A stretch of DNA of 64,000 bases, taken from Eledone cirrhosa. Its lineage: Eukaryota. Below, piece by piece: positions 1,668 through 46,962 of this stretch. A program made the position numbers and the translations under genes. The stretch lies in NCBI GenBank assembly GCA_964016885.1, contig OZ024740.1, forward strand, positions 273,420,001 through 273,484,000, in the 5' to 3' direction. The notes under the pieces were generated by a model, which made no database searches, was not told the DNA's origin, and was given only the letters and a program-made list of their open reading frames with translations. Numbering within the stretch: the first letter of the stretch is position 1; every line of letters begins with the position of its first letter.

Positions 1668-1883
1668 AATGGTTTCTGATTTAGGCCATTAATTTTTTGG
1701 GAAGGGAAAGTCGATTAAATCTACACCAGTGCATTACTGGGACTTTATTTTATCAACCCAATAAGGATGAAAGGCAAAGCTAACTTCGACAGGATTTGAA
1801 CTCAGAACGTAAAGGGGGATATAAACTCTATGCTGCAATGCATGGTATTTTACACTCTACCCATGCTGGCATTTCACCGCCCT
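1668..1883 (-). mobile_element. Nin/Deu-domain SINE
   Basis: Core tttattttatcaaccc..aaggatgaaaggcaaag; reverse B-box gatttgaactc. Confidence 0.85.
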
Positions 1884-2380
1884 AGGATCTATATATAATG
1901 GTAAGACAAATTACTAGTGCTGACTAATCTAGTGGGAAGCTGAATACTGAAGACATACTGGAATTCGTCAGCTTAGCCCTGCAAATTATTGAATAATCTG
2001 TTTAACGAGGTATGCAATATTCCTATTCTGGCGTCGTTGGGAGTCATACATTACAGATGGTAACCCTTTATAATTATCTGTGCAGACCATTGGCCATATG
2101 TCTTCGACAATGGTAGGGATGAAATATTGAACTATCAGCTCTTCAATAGTAGATTAGCAGCGACTTAATTTATCGAATATCAAGCGTTTTCATTAGTGTA
2201 GCAATCACAACAAAGGTTAAACAAAACTGTCTCTTACGACAAACCAGATTATCAGTCATACAAAACGTTTTTTTTTCCGTTTCAGGGAGACGCCATCCAT
2301 CATCCACTTTTCTAAAAAAAAAAATAATCATACACAAAACGCCAGCAGCAACAGTTTTCCAAGAGATGTCAACTAAAGAT

Positions 2381-2565
2381 GTTTATCTAAAGACATTTTT
2401 TCCAATTCCACCACGCCATACCTTCAATCTATCTTATTTCTCATTCTTTCTTCTGATGAAGGAGTAGCGTCCGAAACGTTAAGACCGTCTTCCTCCTATT
2501 TCAAGCGTTAAACTAATATATTCCTTCCATATACTGTACAGATTGTGCTGTTATTTCTGTTTACC
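2381..2565 (+). mobile_element. PLE pseudo-LTR fragment (family A), ending at a microsatellite
   Basis: Repeated at 6381-6540; contains a hammerhead core. Confidence 0.7.
2449..2484 (+). ncRNA. Minimal type I hammerhead ribozyme
   Basis: tctt-CTGATGA-a-gga..tcc-GAAA-cg-TT-aaga: stem I tctt/aaga, palindromic aacgtt stem III. Confidence 0.75.
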
Positions 2566-2569
2566 CTTT

Positions 2570-2626
<57 letters not shown>

Positions 2627-2628
2627 CA

Positions 2629-2726
<98 letters not shown>

Positions 2727-3174
2727 CATATATAGTACTACTGTAAACATATGGTTTAGTTTACATGATCGATTCTACAAATATATAGTAGAATATGTTG
2801 AATATAATTTCGAAAATCTTGAAAAAACTCAGTTTGAGATAATTTTAAAATGACATGTATATAAGTATGCAAGAATTTAAAAATATTTATAAGTACAAAC
2901 AAATTGAAAATACAACACAAATAGTCACCTGAACATAAATACGATGTTGAAAAATTGTATTCTGTGTAAGCATGGTAGATGTATATATTTTAAAGATTTT
3001 TCGAATAATGTTATTGCATTAATATTGTCTAAAGACAGATACATTTATAGATACTTCGATAAAATAACACACATACATAGATATGCTTATATTTTTCCAC
3101 CATTCTCGGTTACTAAAAAAAATTGATAACTGACGTTTGCCACATGTTATAAGCAGAACGAAAATATGAATATA

Positions 3175-4010
<836 letters not shown>

Positions 4011-24049: not shown

Positions 24050-25200
24050 CCATACATATTTTCAAGTCCTGGAATTTGGGTGTGTATTCGTTTGCACATC
24101 TTTTTATCATTGCCAGGACTCCATATATTGTAATGTTTGCTTCGGTTTTCAACACCCACATTCAGATTATCTCTATATACAAAACATTTCAACCGAAAAC
24201 TTTCTCAATTTCTTTCAGAGATGGGACAGAAATTTCAATCAGGAGGTATTCGTTTTCCTGGCAGTCTTTAACATAAGTATCTGTTTAACTTCGTGATCTC
24301 ACTGTTTTTATGTATTGGCATATCCATGAATATAGTGATTTTGAGATCTTTTCTCATGTATGCCTTTAGTAGACATTCTCTGTTGGTAGGCATAATTTCA
24401 AGTGTATGTAAGTTCTAACTATTATAGATCTAAATCAATGTTGTTATGGCTAAACCTGGCCTGCCACAGACAATGTGATTAATTCATCGCCGTCACCACG
24501 TATTCAGAATTTATTTACTCTATTCAGCTTCATTACATGCTTTTGCAAGTTTATGTTAGTGTGGGCCTTTGTTTTGTACCGCAATCAAGAATCTTTTCGT
24601 CTATGATTTGAATTATATACTTCTCAGCAAATGTTAATATTTTACCGTCTTTACATCCATGCTGTTTAACCTATTTACATATTGGTCATGTAAATACCTT
24701 TCTTGCCCAGGTTTTATTGTGGCATACTGTAGCTACTTTTTAAACTGGAATGTAAACATTTTCATAATTTCTTTCCTTGTGTCAGATTTATCTTTAACAT
24801 TATGTAATTTCAACTCATATTTAGTGATTACTGTCCTTCTGCAAGACAGAAAACAATTGTTCCATTTGTTCGTGATTAATAGCTATTTATCTTAGTTTTC
24901 TATTAATCTTTGCTAGCTATTTTTCATCACTTTCTAGATCTAGGGATTTTATGATTTTTTTCTCTAATTGCGAGGATTGCAGTCGAAAAGCGTCTACCTT
25001 TATATCATGAACCATTGCATTGGTGATGTGAAATATTGTACACACTAGTTTCACAATTTGTACGATATCACATTCAATGTATGCAATCTTAGGCTGAATG
25101 CTATGGTGTTTGTTTCTATAGTTTGTCCTTTATTGTATTGTCGTAAGGTCGGATCAAAATACAGTATCACACTCTTATATTTTCTTCCTTTGTACAAACT
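24050..25200 (-). pseudogene. Ancient, heavily decayed R4/Dong-like LINE
   Basis: Residual LIAVQNK, NHIVCGRPGLA and EYLLIEISVPS in the expected order. Confidence 0.5.
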
Positions 25201-25660
25201 AATTCCAATGAAGCCCTTGACATACTAACAACACATGAAAAAAGAAAACATGCTTCGATATCTCCCTAGCAAAATATAAACTTCATACTTTTCTCTGGTT
25301 TTGCATATATATAACTTACAGTCAATGGATGGTTTGTTGGAAAACAATAGTGAAATTTCTTCATACATATATTAATTGAAACAGAACATCTATATTTAGA
25401 ATGTATGCGAGCGTTCGCATGTATATGTGTGCTTGCATGAGTGCAAATCCTGTATACATGTATATTTAATTGTTTTCATCGTCCGAGAAAATTGGAGAGG
25501 GTTAAATAATTAACTTGAAGTAAATATTAGGAGCTATACGATCACAGAAACTCTTGATGATGATGCCCCAGTATGACCGAAGATTAACTCTCTCTCTCTC
25601 TCTCTCACACACAGACACAGACACACATACACACACATACACATATATATATTGTATATG

Positions 25661-25740
<80 letters not shown>

Positions 25741-25744
25741 AATA

Positions 25745-26225
25745 AAGATTCAGCGAGAATCGCATTTTCGGCGGGCAGGAAAAGCGAAGCGAAACGCAAA
25801 AATCAGAAATGATACTGGCAAAGTGCTCAATAGTTAAAAACCAGAGCTAAACAATGTGTTAAGAAGCCATACACAACTGAAAAGGTGGTCAAGAAAGCAT
25901 TAACCACCCAAGCCAAAATCCAAATCAAGCTAAACAGGTCAAAACAAAATAAATGATAAAAAATAAGTGATAACAAGACCTGGACTCCCGGAATTGCTGT
26001 TAAAATCCGATGTAGAGTTTCTGTGACACGTAAATCAAAATACAGTCTGCTTTGTGTATAACGATCGAACAAGGAATATCACATTACCCACAGGTAATTT
26101 CGCTCTGTACCAAATAAGTGAATAACACGGTGGTAAGTTAAACCACGTTTGGAAATCACAAGGGGAATAACCCCAGATTTTGGCAAAGTAATTCAGTTGG
26201 TGTAGATCATGCAAAAAATATATAT
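25745..26225 (-). mobile_element. Probable PLE pLTR fragment between TA tracts
   Basis: Terminus cagcgagaatcgcatttt matches 54051-54070 in reverse complement; HHR-like three-way junction. Confidence 0.45.
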
Positions 26226-26226
26226 A

Positions 26227-26277
<51 letters not shown>

Positions 26278-26302
26278 ATATATATTATATATATATATAT
26301 AT

Positions 26303-26334
<32 letters not shown>

Positions 26335-26367
26335 ATTTATATATTATATATATATTATATATATATT

Positions 26368-26445
26368 AGCTGGCATGCCGAACTACCTCCCCGTTGTGCC
26401 AGCTGGGTGGTCTAAGATTACTCCTAGACCAGCGAAAAGTTCGGC
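26368..26445 (+). ncRNA. HDV-like self-cleaving ribozyme at RTE 5' end
   Basis: P1 agctggc/gccagct, P2 gccgaact/agttcggc, P3 acc/tgt (one mismatch), L3 tccccgt, P1.1 cc/gg, P4 tggtcta/tagacca, J4/2 gCgaaa. Confidence 0.85.
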
Positions 26446-27339
26446 GGCAGTGCATAAGGACGTGGTGGGTTTACGCCTGGCAAGCTTTCTCCCTATAAAA
26501 AGCCACAGATGTCCGCAACAGCACTGTGACGTGGCGAGTATGACCCGCCACTAAATAGGGTCACTGCCCCTCCCCGCTTGAATCACCCGAGGCATTGTAT
26601 TCCAGAAGAAGCGGAAGAACCATTTGGTCAACGGCTCGAGTGGAACTTCGAGAGTATTGGGGCCCAGGTTTGGTTAACGACCAAGCAAAGGCGTTTGAAC
26701 CGGTCTACTGGTCATCGTCTCCCAATGGGTGCGAATCCCTGATCTCGCTCCGCTGCCTTGTGGACAGACATTTTAGTCAAAGGCTCCGGGTGGGGTCCCC
26801 AAAGTAAACCACTACTTCAGCCTAGGCAACCGGGTAGTATTACACCTTCTGGAGAGGGAAACTCCGACATCAAACCTACGGCCCCAGGACCTCGCTGTCA
26901 CCGTCCTAGCTCGCTAGGCCATGGCAGATGAACCTCGTGCTTAAAGGGTGGGGCCAGATTGCGCGCACTGCACTTCACCTTAAAACTTCTCAGCGCAGGC
27001 CGAAGGACACGTCCATGTTCTATGACCAACCATTGCAAAAGCCCTGCAGTGATGGGAAAGGGGCGAAAGCGGCAGGTGGAAGATGTCACTGGAAGCCGTT
27101 GTCTCGATCCTACATGTAGGCGGCATCAGGACTTTGGTCGCCTGGTTGTCGACGCGGAGGCGACGACACCACTCGGTAGCATCCTGAGCGACCAGGCAGC
27201 CCTATCTAGGGTGAGCACTTCCTGCTCCACATGGAGAGGGGCGGTAGAAAAGGATCGCCTAAACAAAGCTCGTCTCCTCTATACCCAGTTGGCTAGCCGC
27301 GGTCAACGGGCATCTTCAGAGCGGGTCAAACGAGCAAAC

Positions 27340-27830
27340 ATGGAAATAAAACTAAAGAAAAGTAAGCAGGACTTGAAAGTTGCCTGCTGGAATGTCATGA
27401 CTATGCTTGACAAGGCTGACAGCAGCCGCCCGGAACGTCGTTCGGCTCTCATAGTCCATCAACTCTCCCGCCTCAACATCGACATAGCAGCTCTCAGCGA
27501 GGTTCGTTTCGCTGACGAGGGCAGCCTCAAAGAACGCGGCGCTGGCTACACCCTTTTCTGGTCATGTAAACCATCATCTGGAAGACGCCTGTCGGGTGTA
27601 GGAAGGACTCATGGTGAGGAATTCCTTCGCCTCCAATCTGGAAACGTTACCCACGGGCCACTTAGACCGCATCATATCCATGCGCCTACCACTGGAGAGC
27701 AAACAACATTTCACGTTCTTCAGTGTCTATGCTCCAACGCTACTGGAAGATCCTGCGGACAAAGACAGTTTCTATTCTGATCTGCGCAGACGACAAGGTC
27801 CTGATCCATGGCGACTTCAACGCAATAGTT
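27340..27830 (+). pseudogene. RTE apurinic-like endonuclease domain (frameshifted)
   Basis: VACWNV.TM.D..RPERRSALI..L.RLNIDIAALSEVRF, GYTLFWS, FSVYAPTL, GDFNA. Confidence 0.9.
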
Positions 27831-27912
27831 GGGAGGGACTAGTATTATATTCGTATTAGTATTCCAATACTCTCCATACTAGGATTCGAACATATGATAT
27901 CAAAGGATGTTT

Positions 27913-27992
27913 AAAATAAAATAAAATAAAATAAAATAAAATAAAATAAAATAAAATAAAATAAAATAAAATAAAATAAAATGAAATAGAAA
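27913..27992. repeat. (AAAAT)n microsatellite
   Basis: Directly visible. Confidence 0.95.
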
Positions 27993-28191
27993 ATTTCATT
28001 TTCAAATAAGAACAAACAAGAGATGATATTTTTATTATTATTTGTTTGATTTCATTTGATGCATTTTGCGTTTCTTTGAAATTTCAAAGAATTTCAAAGA
28101 GTTTCTGTATTCTTTTGCTAAAGATTGATAGTTTGTATGTCTATATGCACAGATACACACGCAAACACATGCACACACACATACACAACCA

Positions 28192-45547: not shown

Positions 45548-45882
45548 GCGGCGATGAATTAGTTTTGCGAGGTTTTTTATATGAAATCGTGTGTCGAAAC
45601 AGATATTGTTATATTTGGGGAGGGTCATATTTGCGTAATATTGCCAGAATTAATAACAGAACACACTCACTGTTTGGTTGGTTTTCGCTTCTCGCTGTCT
45701 TTTATATATATATATCTGCGATCTAACTTACTCGGTCCTCAATGTTGCCATTGACTGACCGGCGGTCAAAAATAATACAGATACAATATAGACAAACACA
45801 TATATATATAGTTTACATAATTTACATAAATCTTTCGTTGCACATCTGCAACATCGTCAGTGGTGTTATATTCATATGCACG

Positions 45883-46962
45883 ATGGAAAGCATCCAGCAG
45901 ATAGCTAATTCCATACACCAGAGTATAACTGTAACTATAGACTTCCCTTCCAAACACCCTAACAATAGACTACCTGTATTAGACACAGAACTCTGGATTA
46001 ACACTATAGACGAGAGAGCCCAAATTCTCCACTCACACTATGCTAAACCCATGGCCTCCAAATACCTGATACTCAAAAACTCAGCAATGTCCAGTAGTGC
46101 TAAGTTTAATATTCTGATCGCAGATTTGGTACGAGTGATGAAGAATGTGTCCAGCATGTGCGACCCAACAGAAATGGAAGGACACATCCAACACTTCATC
46201 AACCGCATGCAGTTCTCTGGCTACAACCAAAGAGACAGAGTCAGAGTATACGAAGGAGCCATGGAAAAGTATAAGACCCTCATAGAACTGGACATGAAAG
46301 GAATTTGCCCACTATACAGGAGCAAATCATGGAATAGCTTAGATAGGGCTAGACATAAGATAGGGAAGGCCACATCATGGTACGACAACCAGAGATATCA
46401 GAGTGTCATGTTTGTGGACGCCACCCCTGGAGGGAAATTAGCTAACCAGTGTAGAAAGGCCCTGAGAAAGACCCACTTAAAAATAAAGGTGGTAGAAAAG
46501 CCAGGAACCACCATAAAATCCCTGATCAGCAAAACCTACCCTTTTAAGAAAACCCACTGTACCAATAGGAAATGTATCATATGTAAGGTAAACCCCCGGA
46601 TAAACTGTAAAACTAGAAACGTAGTCTATAGCATAAGATGTACAGAGGGTACTTGCAGAAACACGACAACAACATACATAGGTGAGACAGCTCGTAGCAT
46701 AGGTGAAAGGATAGACCAACACTGGGGGGAACTAAAAGGACGAAAAAACGGGTCAGTACTATACGGACATGCTAGACAACAACATGACGGTAACATAGAC
46801 AACATAGAAATTAGAATAATATCTAAACATAGGAATGACCCAGCAGATAGGCAAATCAGAGAGGCCAGTGAAATAGAAATTAGAAGACCAAAGCTAAACA
46901 GAAAGAATGAGTGGAACAACAACAACACCCAAACAAACAACACTGACCTAAGAGAAGTATAA
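45883..46962 (+). CDS. PLE C-terminal half (late RT/thumb, Cys-rich linker, GIY-YIG endonuclease), uninterrupted but 5'-truncated
   Basis: LPVLD, SAMS..K, MQFSGY, CTNRKCIIC, VVYSIRC..YIGETARS..R..H, RQIREA, LNRKNEW. Confidence 0.8.
   Translation: MESIQQIANSIHQSITVTIDFPSKHPNNRLPVLDTELWINTIDERAQILHSHYAKPMASKYLILKNSAMSSSAKFNILIADLVRVMKNVSSMCDPTEMEGHIQHFINRMQFSGYNQRDRVRVYEGAMEKYKTLIELDMKGICPLYRSKSWNSLDRARHKIGKATSWYDNQRYQSVMFVDATPGGKLANQCRKALRKTHLKIKVVEKPGTTIKSLISKTYPFKKTHCTNRKCIICKVNPRINCKTRNVVYSIRCTEGTCRNTTTTYIGETARSIGERIDQHWGELKGRKNGSVLYGHARQQHDGNIDNIEIRIISKHRNDPADRQIREASEIEIRRPKLNRKNEWNNNNTQTNNTDLREV

What the first reader, a model, noticed from the sequence alone, without database searches (positions are those of the whole stretch)
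26368..26445. HDV-like ribozyme defining the exact 5' end of an RTE LINE
Seen: right after a (TA)n tract the sequence folds into the nested double pseudoknot of HDV-like ribozymes. P1 is 26368-74/26398-404, J1/2 is AU, P2 is 26377-84/26438-45 (8 perfect bp), P3 is acc/tgt, L3 is UCCCCGU, P1.1 uses GG 26405-06, P4 is 26408-14/26425-31, and the putative catalytic C is 26433 in gCGAAA. The element starts at the predicted cleavage site and runs about 970 nt to an RTE APE ORF. Known: HDV-like ribozymes process the 5' ends of R2, L1Tc and some RTE elements. Inference: this family excises itself from host read-through transcripts, and this copy has two deviations (A rather than G at +1, a C.U mismatch in P3 at 26395). 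I do not know of a description for this cephalopod-like family.
Basis: partly seen in the sequence, partly recalled or inferred. Interest (0 to 1): 0.75.

Follow-up and report, generated by a model that had tools for sequence, protein, structure and literature searches.

The report
HDV-type ribozyme heading an RTE LINE
The first 78 bases of a small family of jumping genes are predicted to fold like the hepatitis-delta self-cutting RNA, and the copies start at the base where it would cut, so it likely frees the element from host transcripts, a known strategy; the copy in this window is broken.

Summary
Observation confirmed. [quoted passage not shown] A strict descriptor gave 0 hits in 114.8 Mb of matched random sequence. 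It heads a 4.2-kb single-ORF (APE-RT) RTE-type LINE of at least 27 copies. Of 26 copies found by their 3' end, 8 start exactly at +1, 15 within 25 nt, none upstream. One correction: A at +1 is the family state (8 of 9 copies), not a defect. Only the P3 mismatch at 26395 is a copy mutation (G in 14 of 16). This copy is 3'-truncated and frameshifted. Covariation within the family is nil because the copies are too young. Five more distant RTEs carry HDV folds of different sequence at the same position. Cleavage is untested. HDV-like ribozymes on RTE elements are published, and this scan noted them before in at least 25 genomes. Verdict: new member of a known kind, low interest. Side lead: the nearest relatives carry a different, unclassified structured 5' head, which suggests head exchange.

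The parts
26218..26367 (.). (TA)n microsatellite at the insertion site (host flank); supplies the -1 base (T)
   Evidence: 8 of 9 copies starting at +1 have (TA)n directly upstream against 8-11% background
26368..26445 (+). HDV-like ribozyme fold with 2-nt J1/2; +1 = first base of the element; one difference from the family majority (26395 G>T)
26368..26374 (+). P1 5' strand; pairs with 26398-26404; A-U pair at the predicted cleavage site
   Evidence: A-U in 8, G-U in 1 of 9 copies
26377..26384 (+). P2 5' strand; pairs with 26438-26445 (8 bp)
26385..26397 (+). P3-L3-P3'; C26387.U26395 mismatch specific to this copy and L010; C26389/C26390 pair with G26406/G26405 (P1.1)
26408..26431 (+). P4 hairpin (7 bp, mismatch, 2 bp, 4-nt loop); a perfect 10-bp stem in the sister subfamily of another organism
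   Evidence: A>G at +48 in 20 of 21 covering contigs of run X4
26432..26437 (+). J4/2 with the putative catalytic C26433
   Evidence: role inferred from HDV C75 (PMC13635239 passages)
26446..27339 (+). rest of the ~970-nt 5' UTR (13 upstream ATGs in the family majority); only its distal half (nt ~490-965) is shared with the closest relatives
27340..27840 (+). 5' part of the APE endonuclease ORF, frameshifted and with a 23-nt deletion; the copy ends here, no RT or 3' end anywhere in the window

Best explanation
Bases 26368-26445 are the first 78 bases of a 4.2-kb single-ORF LINE family and are predicted to fold as an HDV-like ribozyme that likely cuts the element's RNA out of host read-through transcripts just 5' of A26368. 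Shown: the fold's pairings and core bases, the coincidence of +1 with the 5' boundary of independent insertions, the single APE-RT ORF, a 26-nt 3' end with (TGA)n, 10-11-bp target-site duplications, and a preference for (TA)n. Inferred: a copy inside a host transcription unit is transcribed from a host promoter; the ribozyme cleaves co-transcriptionally with C26433 as general acid and Mg2+; the uncapped 5'-OH RNA is protected by the fold, translated, and copied by target-primed reverse transcription up to +1. The next insertion therefore starts at +1 whatever lay upstream. The A-U pair at +1 belonged to the source element. The window copy is a dead remnant, and its ribozyme is likely impaired by the P3 mutation.
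For: Fold beyond chance: 0 strict hits in 114.8 Mb, sole hit in the window, Rfam's two ribozyme matches fall on these bases. Boundary: of 16 copies holding the fold, 9 start at +1, 1 at +2, 6 at +8 to +25, 0 share upstream sequence. Of 26 copies found by the 3' end, 15 reach the fold (8 at +1), 5 start at nt 218-828, 6 at nt 1768-3331. In another organism's run, loose ends lie just before +1 in 5 contigs, before +4 in 2 and before +8 in 3. Across lineages: of 58 upstream regions of related APE genes in metagenome contigs, 6 hold the P3-L3-P3-GG core on the sense strand and 0 on the antisense; the full descriptor gave 4 sense hits and 1 weak antisense hit; their P1, P2, P3 and P4 sequences differ from ours yet pair. 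No extra G at -1 in 9 of 9 copies, weakly in line with an uncapped template (cap-G rule recalled). Literature: RTE elements lack own promoters and carry HDV-like ribozymes (PMC6765202 passages); cleavage maps to the first base of P1 (PMC4908430 passages).
Against: No cleavage assay and no RNA data. No two-sided covariation among 9 copies; the fold decays as fast as the rest of the UTR (3.05% against 2.7-3.2% at non-CpG sites), as expected of dead copies but no support. Rfam scores stay below gathering. A competing extension of P1 is predicted more stable than P1+P3 alone, by 4.0 kcal/mol in family-type copies and 8.1 in this copy (pseudoknot terms not included). A published design descriptor fixes G1-Y (PMC6326823 passages), and I could not read the paper on +1 pair tolerance. 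The cross-lineage folds have long J1/2 and may not share direct descent; a model built from this family matched none of 60 loci. The closest relatives (70-75% APE identity) have no HDV fold at their 5' end.
Confidence: 0.8

Rival explanations
1. The 5' end is set by an internal Pol II promoter that starts at +1. The HDV fold is real but serves mainly to stabilise the RNA or recruit ribosomes, or works alongside a promoter as in L1Tc Pr77.
For: Precise 5' ends also arise from internal promoters; Pr77 is both promoter and ribozyme (PMC4035085 passages). A non-cleaving design question is open: ribozyme structure itself raised R2 template use (PMC11331408 passages). 13 upstream ATGs in the UTR argue against simple scanning. 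A-U rather than G-U at +1.
Against: All catalytic-core bases are kept in the family majority. A promoter gives no reason for the boundary to equal the first base of P1. No extra 5' G in 9 of 9 copies.
Confidence: 0.14
2. The ribozyme was already a slow or dead relic in the source element (A at +1, competing P1 extension), and the family spread briefly by other means before dying out.
For: Low copy number (26 with a 3' end); none of the 16 long loci examined keeps a whole ORF (longest family frame 576 aa of ~1100); misfold predicted.
Against: The majority sequence has all 27 pairs intact; a sister subfamily in another organism has an even better P4 and the same boundary; a C at +1 occurs in a fast natural HDV-like ribozyme (PMC13635239 passages), so G is not obligatory.
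Confidence: 0.05
3. The fold is a chance pattern in a GC-rich UTR.
For: Below Rfam gathering scores; nested-fold z-scores are modest (-2.6 and -1.6); no covariation in the family.
Against: 0 strict hits in 114.8 Mb; 94% of cells paired against 14-44% when partners are slid (though the structure was derived from these sequences); exact coincidence with the element boundary.
Confidence: 0.01

Closest known systems
HDV-like ribozymes at the 5' ends of RTE-clade non-LTR retrotransposons (Ruminski et al. 2011; seen only through the review PMC6765202, passages; the paper itself was not held)
   Same: Nested double pseudoknot at the 5' terminus of an RTE-type element; proposed release from host co-transcripts.
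   Different: This family's sequence was not found described; host group undetermined; A-U at +1; activity untested.
drz-Agam-1 (Rfam RF01787) and HDV ribozyme (RF00094)
   Same: Best ribozyme matches in Rfam over the full model length; compact form with short J1/2.
   Different: 26.8-33.5 bits against gathering 37, and 30.6-35.1 against 50, so not a member of either Rfam family by score.
R2 and L1Tc/ingi HDV-like ribozymes (PMC3774820, PMC4035085; passages)
   Same: Same fold and inferred role; heterogeneous junctions upstream of +1 as in Drosophila-type R2 that cleave at the element boundary.
   Different: R2 is rDNA-specific with a different endonuclease; L1Tc Pr77 is also a shown promoter. 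This element encodes an APE and favours (TA)n.
Perere-3 twister variants of Schistosoma mansoni (PMC8501958; passages)
   Same: RTE-clade LINE whose 5' end is set by a self-cleaving ribozyme, with TSDs next to the cleavage site.
   Different: Different ribozyme class; P1 there is completed by target sequence, here P1 lies wholly in the element.
RTE-2_OV, the brain-expressed Octopus vulgaris RTE (PMC9115989; passages, part of supplements)
   Same: Single-ORF RTE of similar size.
   Different: Not the same family: four published primers have 6-8 mismatches at their best site; 5' UTR ~970 against ~600 nt. The paper's main text does not mention a ribozyme.

Membership tests
HDV-like ribozyme | Five helices P1, P1.1, P2, P3, P4 in nested double-pseudoknot order | tested here: met
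   all 27 pairs intact in the family majority; window copy has one P3 mismatch. Pairing is predicted, not probed.
HDV-like ribozyme | Catalytic C and following A in J4/2; U20 and G25 equivalents in L3; two C-G pairs in P1.1 | tested here: met
   C26433, A26435-37, U26388, G26393, C26389/90 with G26406/05; features as in PMC6326823 and PMC13635239 passages
HDV-like ribozyme | Paired first nucleotide of P1 at the cleavage site (classically G-U or G-C) | tested here: inconclusive
   Paired, but A-U in 8 of 9 copies and G-U in 1. Tolerance of purine-pyrimidine pairs is recalled from Cerrone-Szakal 2008 (title seen only; not held).
HDV-like ribozyme | Covariation supporting the helices | tested here: inconclusive
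   None within the family (copies 1.6-3.9% diverged). Different sequences keep the same helices in more distant RTEs, but these could not be aligned to this family.
HDV-like ribozyme | Mg2+-dependent self-cleavage abolished by the C>U change | not testable with these tools
   needs a bench assay
Rfam RF00094 / RF01787 | Score at or above the gathering threshold | tested here: not met
   not filed under either Rfam family
RTE-clade LINE | Single ORF with AP endonuclease and reverse transcriptase | tested here: met
   one frame of about 1080 aa in the family majority; PF03372 and PF00078 in copy L034; feature from PMC2887409 passages
RTE-clade LINE | Very short 3' UTR ending in simple repeats; short target-site duplications | tested here: met
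   26 nt after the stop, (TGA)n; complex TSDs of 10 and 11 bp in L032 and L034, most others in TA arrays and so ambiguous (13 copies examined)
RTE-clade LINE | RT phylogeny groups with named RTE members (RTE-1, Bov-B, JAM1) | not tested
   No named RTE reference came out; the clade label rests on architecture and recalled motifs

The most novel reading that the evidence does not exclude
RTE LINEs exchange their 5' processing heads as modules. This family carries a compact A+1 HDV ribozyme and about 490 nt that its nearest relatives lack. Those relatives (L075, L078, L079, L080, L117) instead begin with a different conserved structured RNA that matches no Rfam family and also heads a distant RTE family in this genome (L064, L066). 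That second head, sitting at the exact 5' boundary where other RTEs have HDV or twister ribozymes, would be an undescribed self-cleaving ribozyme.
Probability: 0.2. Interest if true: 0.7.

Novelty: new member of a known kind. Interest (0 to 1): 0.25.

Why it matters
It adds one more RTE family, probably in a little-sampled animal group, to the list of LINEs headed by an HDV-like ribozyme. It offers a compact 78-nt natural variant with an A-U pair at the cleavage site that is easy to assay. It changes no concept. The side observation matters more if it holds: sister RTE lineages carry interchangeable 5' heads, one of them unclassified, so RTE 5' ends may be a good place to look for new ribozyme classes.

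Tried and rejected
Expression: no RNA holder listed, so no evidence either way. The 29 reads of run X13 that begin at +7 are a restriction-site artefact of a RAD library (a GCATGC site lies at +6 to +11; enzyme name recalled), not an RNA or element start. Run X8 gave no cover, and X5 and X7 did not cover the ribozyme. Identity with RTE-2_OV: rejected by primer mismatch; supplements 5-8 of that paper were not searched and two files were too large to read; a later paper says the sequence was not reported (PMC13282606 passages). Antisense descriptor hits inside the ORF (one mismatch allowed, long linkers) were treated as noise. My first descriptor demanded C-R-A in J4/2 and missed C-U-A forms; corrected. 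The family model R1 found nothing in 60 other loci and cannot be run on this genome. Rfam found nothing for the alternative heads. I could not fit the alternative head to an HDV, twister or hatchet layout by eye. One search used a mis-specified structure and is discarded. One search's output was cut and was repeated in part. L117 fell out of the tree (under 150 aa recovered; one search shows 32 of 33 rows). Ruminski 2011, Webb 2009 and Cerrone-Szakal 2008 were not held; their supplements may list this or a close family. Literature searches showed no paper describing an HDV-like ribozyme on a mollusc or cephalopod RTE. My notebook's count '16 of 18' for G at 26395 was wrong; the count is 14 of 16.

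Full report
Observation. My descriptor for the nested double pseudoknot returns this site, and only this site, in the 64-kb window on both strands, with P1 7/7, P2 8/8 and one P3 mismatch. P4 is also the minimum-energy hairpin. Rfam's two ribozyme matches in 25000-28000 fall on the same bases, below gathering score. In 114.8 Mb of random sequence of the UTR's dinucleotide make-up, the loose descriptor hit 494 times, 13 times with a P4, and never at this site's stringency. The ATG lies at 27340, 972 nt downstream, and opens an APE frame.

The element. The window lies in a 3.0-Gb genome. A search with the 5' end gave 18 matches: 16 copies that hold the fold, one short inverted fragment and one that starts further in. 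Long loci show a 4.2-kb element. The family majority has a 967-nt 5' UTR and one ORF of about 1080 aa with a C-terminal Cys/His motif, and 14 aligned copies differ from it by 1.6-3.9%. Copy L034 matches PF03372 and PF00078. Only 26 nt follow the stop codon, ending in (TGA)n; L032 and L034 have complex target-site duplications of 10 and 11 bp. These are the RTE features listed in PMC2887409 (passages). No tree with named RTE members was made, so the clade label rests on architecture. A 3' end search gave 26 copies at 86% identity or more; with the window copy the family has at least 27. The window copy covers nt 1-1487 only and carries frameshifts and a 23-nt deletion: it is dead.

The 5' boundary. 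Of 16 copies with the fold, 9 start at +1, 1 at +2 (a 5' inversion), 6 at +8 to +25, and none shares sequence upstream. That set was found with the 5' end, so I also counted from the 3' end: of 26 copies, 15 reach the fold (8 at +1), 5 start at nt 218-828 and 6 at nt 1768-3331. In a run from another organism (X4) loose ends lie just before +1 in 5 contigs, before +4 in 2 and before +8 in 3. Eight of 9 copies at +1 follow (TA)n, against 8-11% background.

The two 'deviations'. G at 26395 is the family state: 14 of 16 copies and all 15 covering contigs of X4. It is the window copy's only change within the 78 bases. It costs P1+P3 about 5 kcal/mol and widens the lead of a competing longer P1, so this copy's ribozyme is likely impaired. 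A at +1 is not a deviation: 8 of 9 copies have it, and in 6 of the 8 it is out of register with a TA target. The source element had an A-U pair there. That G is not obligatory is seen in a fast natural ribozyme with C1 (PMC13635239, passages). Tolerance of A-U itself is recalled, not read.

Covariation. Among 9 copies no pair shows a two-sided change, and the fold decays at the rate of the rest of the UTR. Both are expected of young dead copies and give no support. One-sided support: the X4 subfamily has A>G at +48 in 20 of 21 covering contigs, which perfects P4 to 10 bp. Across lineages, I fetched 80 metagenome loci with related APE genes and scanned the 58 with at least 400 nt upstream. Six hold the HDV core on the sense strand, 775-886 nt before the APE match, and none on the antisense; two of the six are the same element, so five are distinct. 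The full descriptor gave 4 sense hits and 1 weak antisense hit. Their helices differ in sequence from ours and still pair, including G-C for A-U in P3, but they have J1/2 of 100-180 nt and the family model does not find them. They show the same device at the same position, not proven descent.

Mechanism. Shown: fold, boundary, architecture. Inferred from HDV chemistry and from R2, L1Tc and RTE work (PMC6765202, PMC3774820, PMC4908430; passages): host read-through RNA is cut 5' of +1 with C26433 as general acid, and the released RNA is reverse transcribed to +1 at a new, usually TA-rich, site. I put this at 0.8. A promoter at +1 with a structural role for the fold gets 0.14, a relic ribozyme 0.05, chance 0.01. 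No RNA run was available.

Relatives. RT relatives at 74-79% identity occur in records named as lancelet, shrimp, mantis shrimp and fish, and 73% in a sea urchin; a 79% cluster includes a sea anemone protein. Such closeness across phyla fits the horizontal transfer known for RTEs, which I did not test. The family is not RTE-2_OV. The host group was not determined.

Side lead. The nearest relatives with intact 5' ends (L075, L078, L079, L080 at 70-75% APE identity, and L117) match the family UTR at about 80% only over nt 490-965 and begin with another conserved structured head with no Rfam match. The same head starts a distant RTE family in this genome (L064, L066). On an APE tree this family and the L075 group share a 100/99 clade, while L064/L066 lie outside it in a 99/97 group with a family that has yet another head (223 columns, deep nodes open, no topology test, head labels for L094 and L111 by eye or core only). 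Exchange of 5' ends between LINE families has precedent (PMC4758252, passages).

Novelty and verdict. HDV-like ribozymes on RTE elements are published (PMC6765202, passages), and this scan has 101 notes with these words in at least 25 genomes, none on this sequence. Searches found no description for a mollusc or cephalopod RTE, but the primary paper and its supplement were not available. New member of a known kind; interest 0.25.

Noticed in passing
L075:1690-1820, L078:507-638, L079:1690-1821, L080:~195-330, L117:1685-1818; own genome L064:880-1010, L066, L054:222-345: A conserved structured 5' head, unlike the HDV fold and without an Rfam match, starts the closest RTE relatives and a distant RTE family of this genome; its first 7 bases can pair with a segment about 45 nt downstream and it ends in a CTAA-like motif. 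Possible unclassified ribozyme.
   Followed up: partly
L065, L067-L074 and over 100 further places listed: A young, high-copy RTE-type family (52% APE identity) with many open frames of about 1200 aa; its 5' head is a third type with no HDV descriptor hit and no Rfam match.
   Followed up: partly
L083/L084, L087, L091, L098, L111 (L094 by eye): Long-J1/2 HDV-like folds upstream of RTE-type APE genes in metagenome contigs.
   Followed up: partly
window 45727-46962 +: 411-aa open frame whose C-terminal part looks by eye like a Penelope-type GIY-YIG endonuclease (recalled motifs); no Pfam hit.
   Followed up: partly
L037 (C1:183.17 Mb), L043 (C2:46.83 Mb), L041 (C3:118.37 Mb): 5'-inverted copies of the family and a 40-nt inverted duplicate of the ribozyme's 5' end about 1.4 kb upstream of one copy.
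   Followed up: no
and one search hits: RT relatives at 73-79% identity in lancelet, crustacean, sea urchin, fish and sea anemone records suggest a horizontally moving marine RTE lineage.
   Followed up: no
5' junctions of W, L030, L035, L032: A T at -1 that is out of register with the target or outside a TA array in 4 of 9 copies; may be an untemplated addition by the RT.
   Followed up: no
L014 (C3:118375696): A full-length copy whose putative catalytic C has mutated to T, a natural knock-out control.
   Followed up: no
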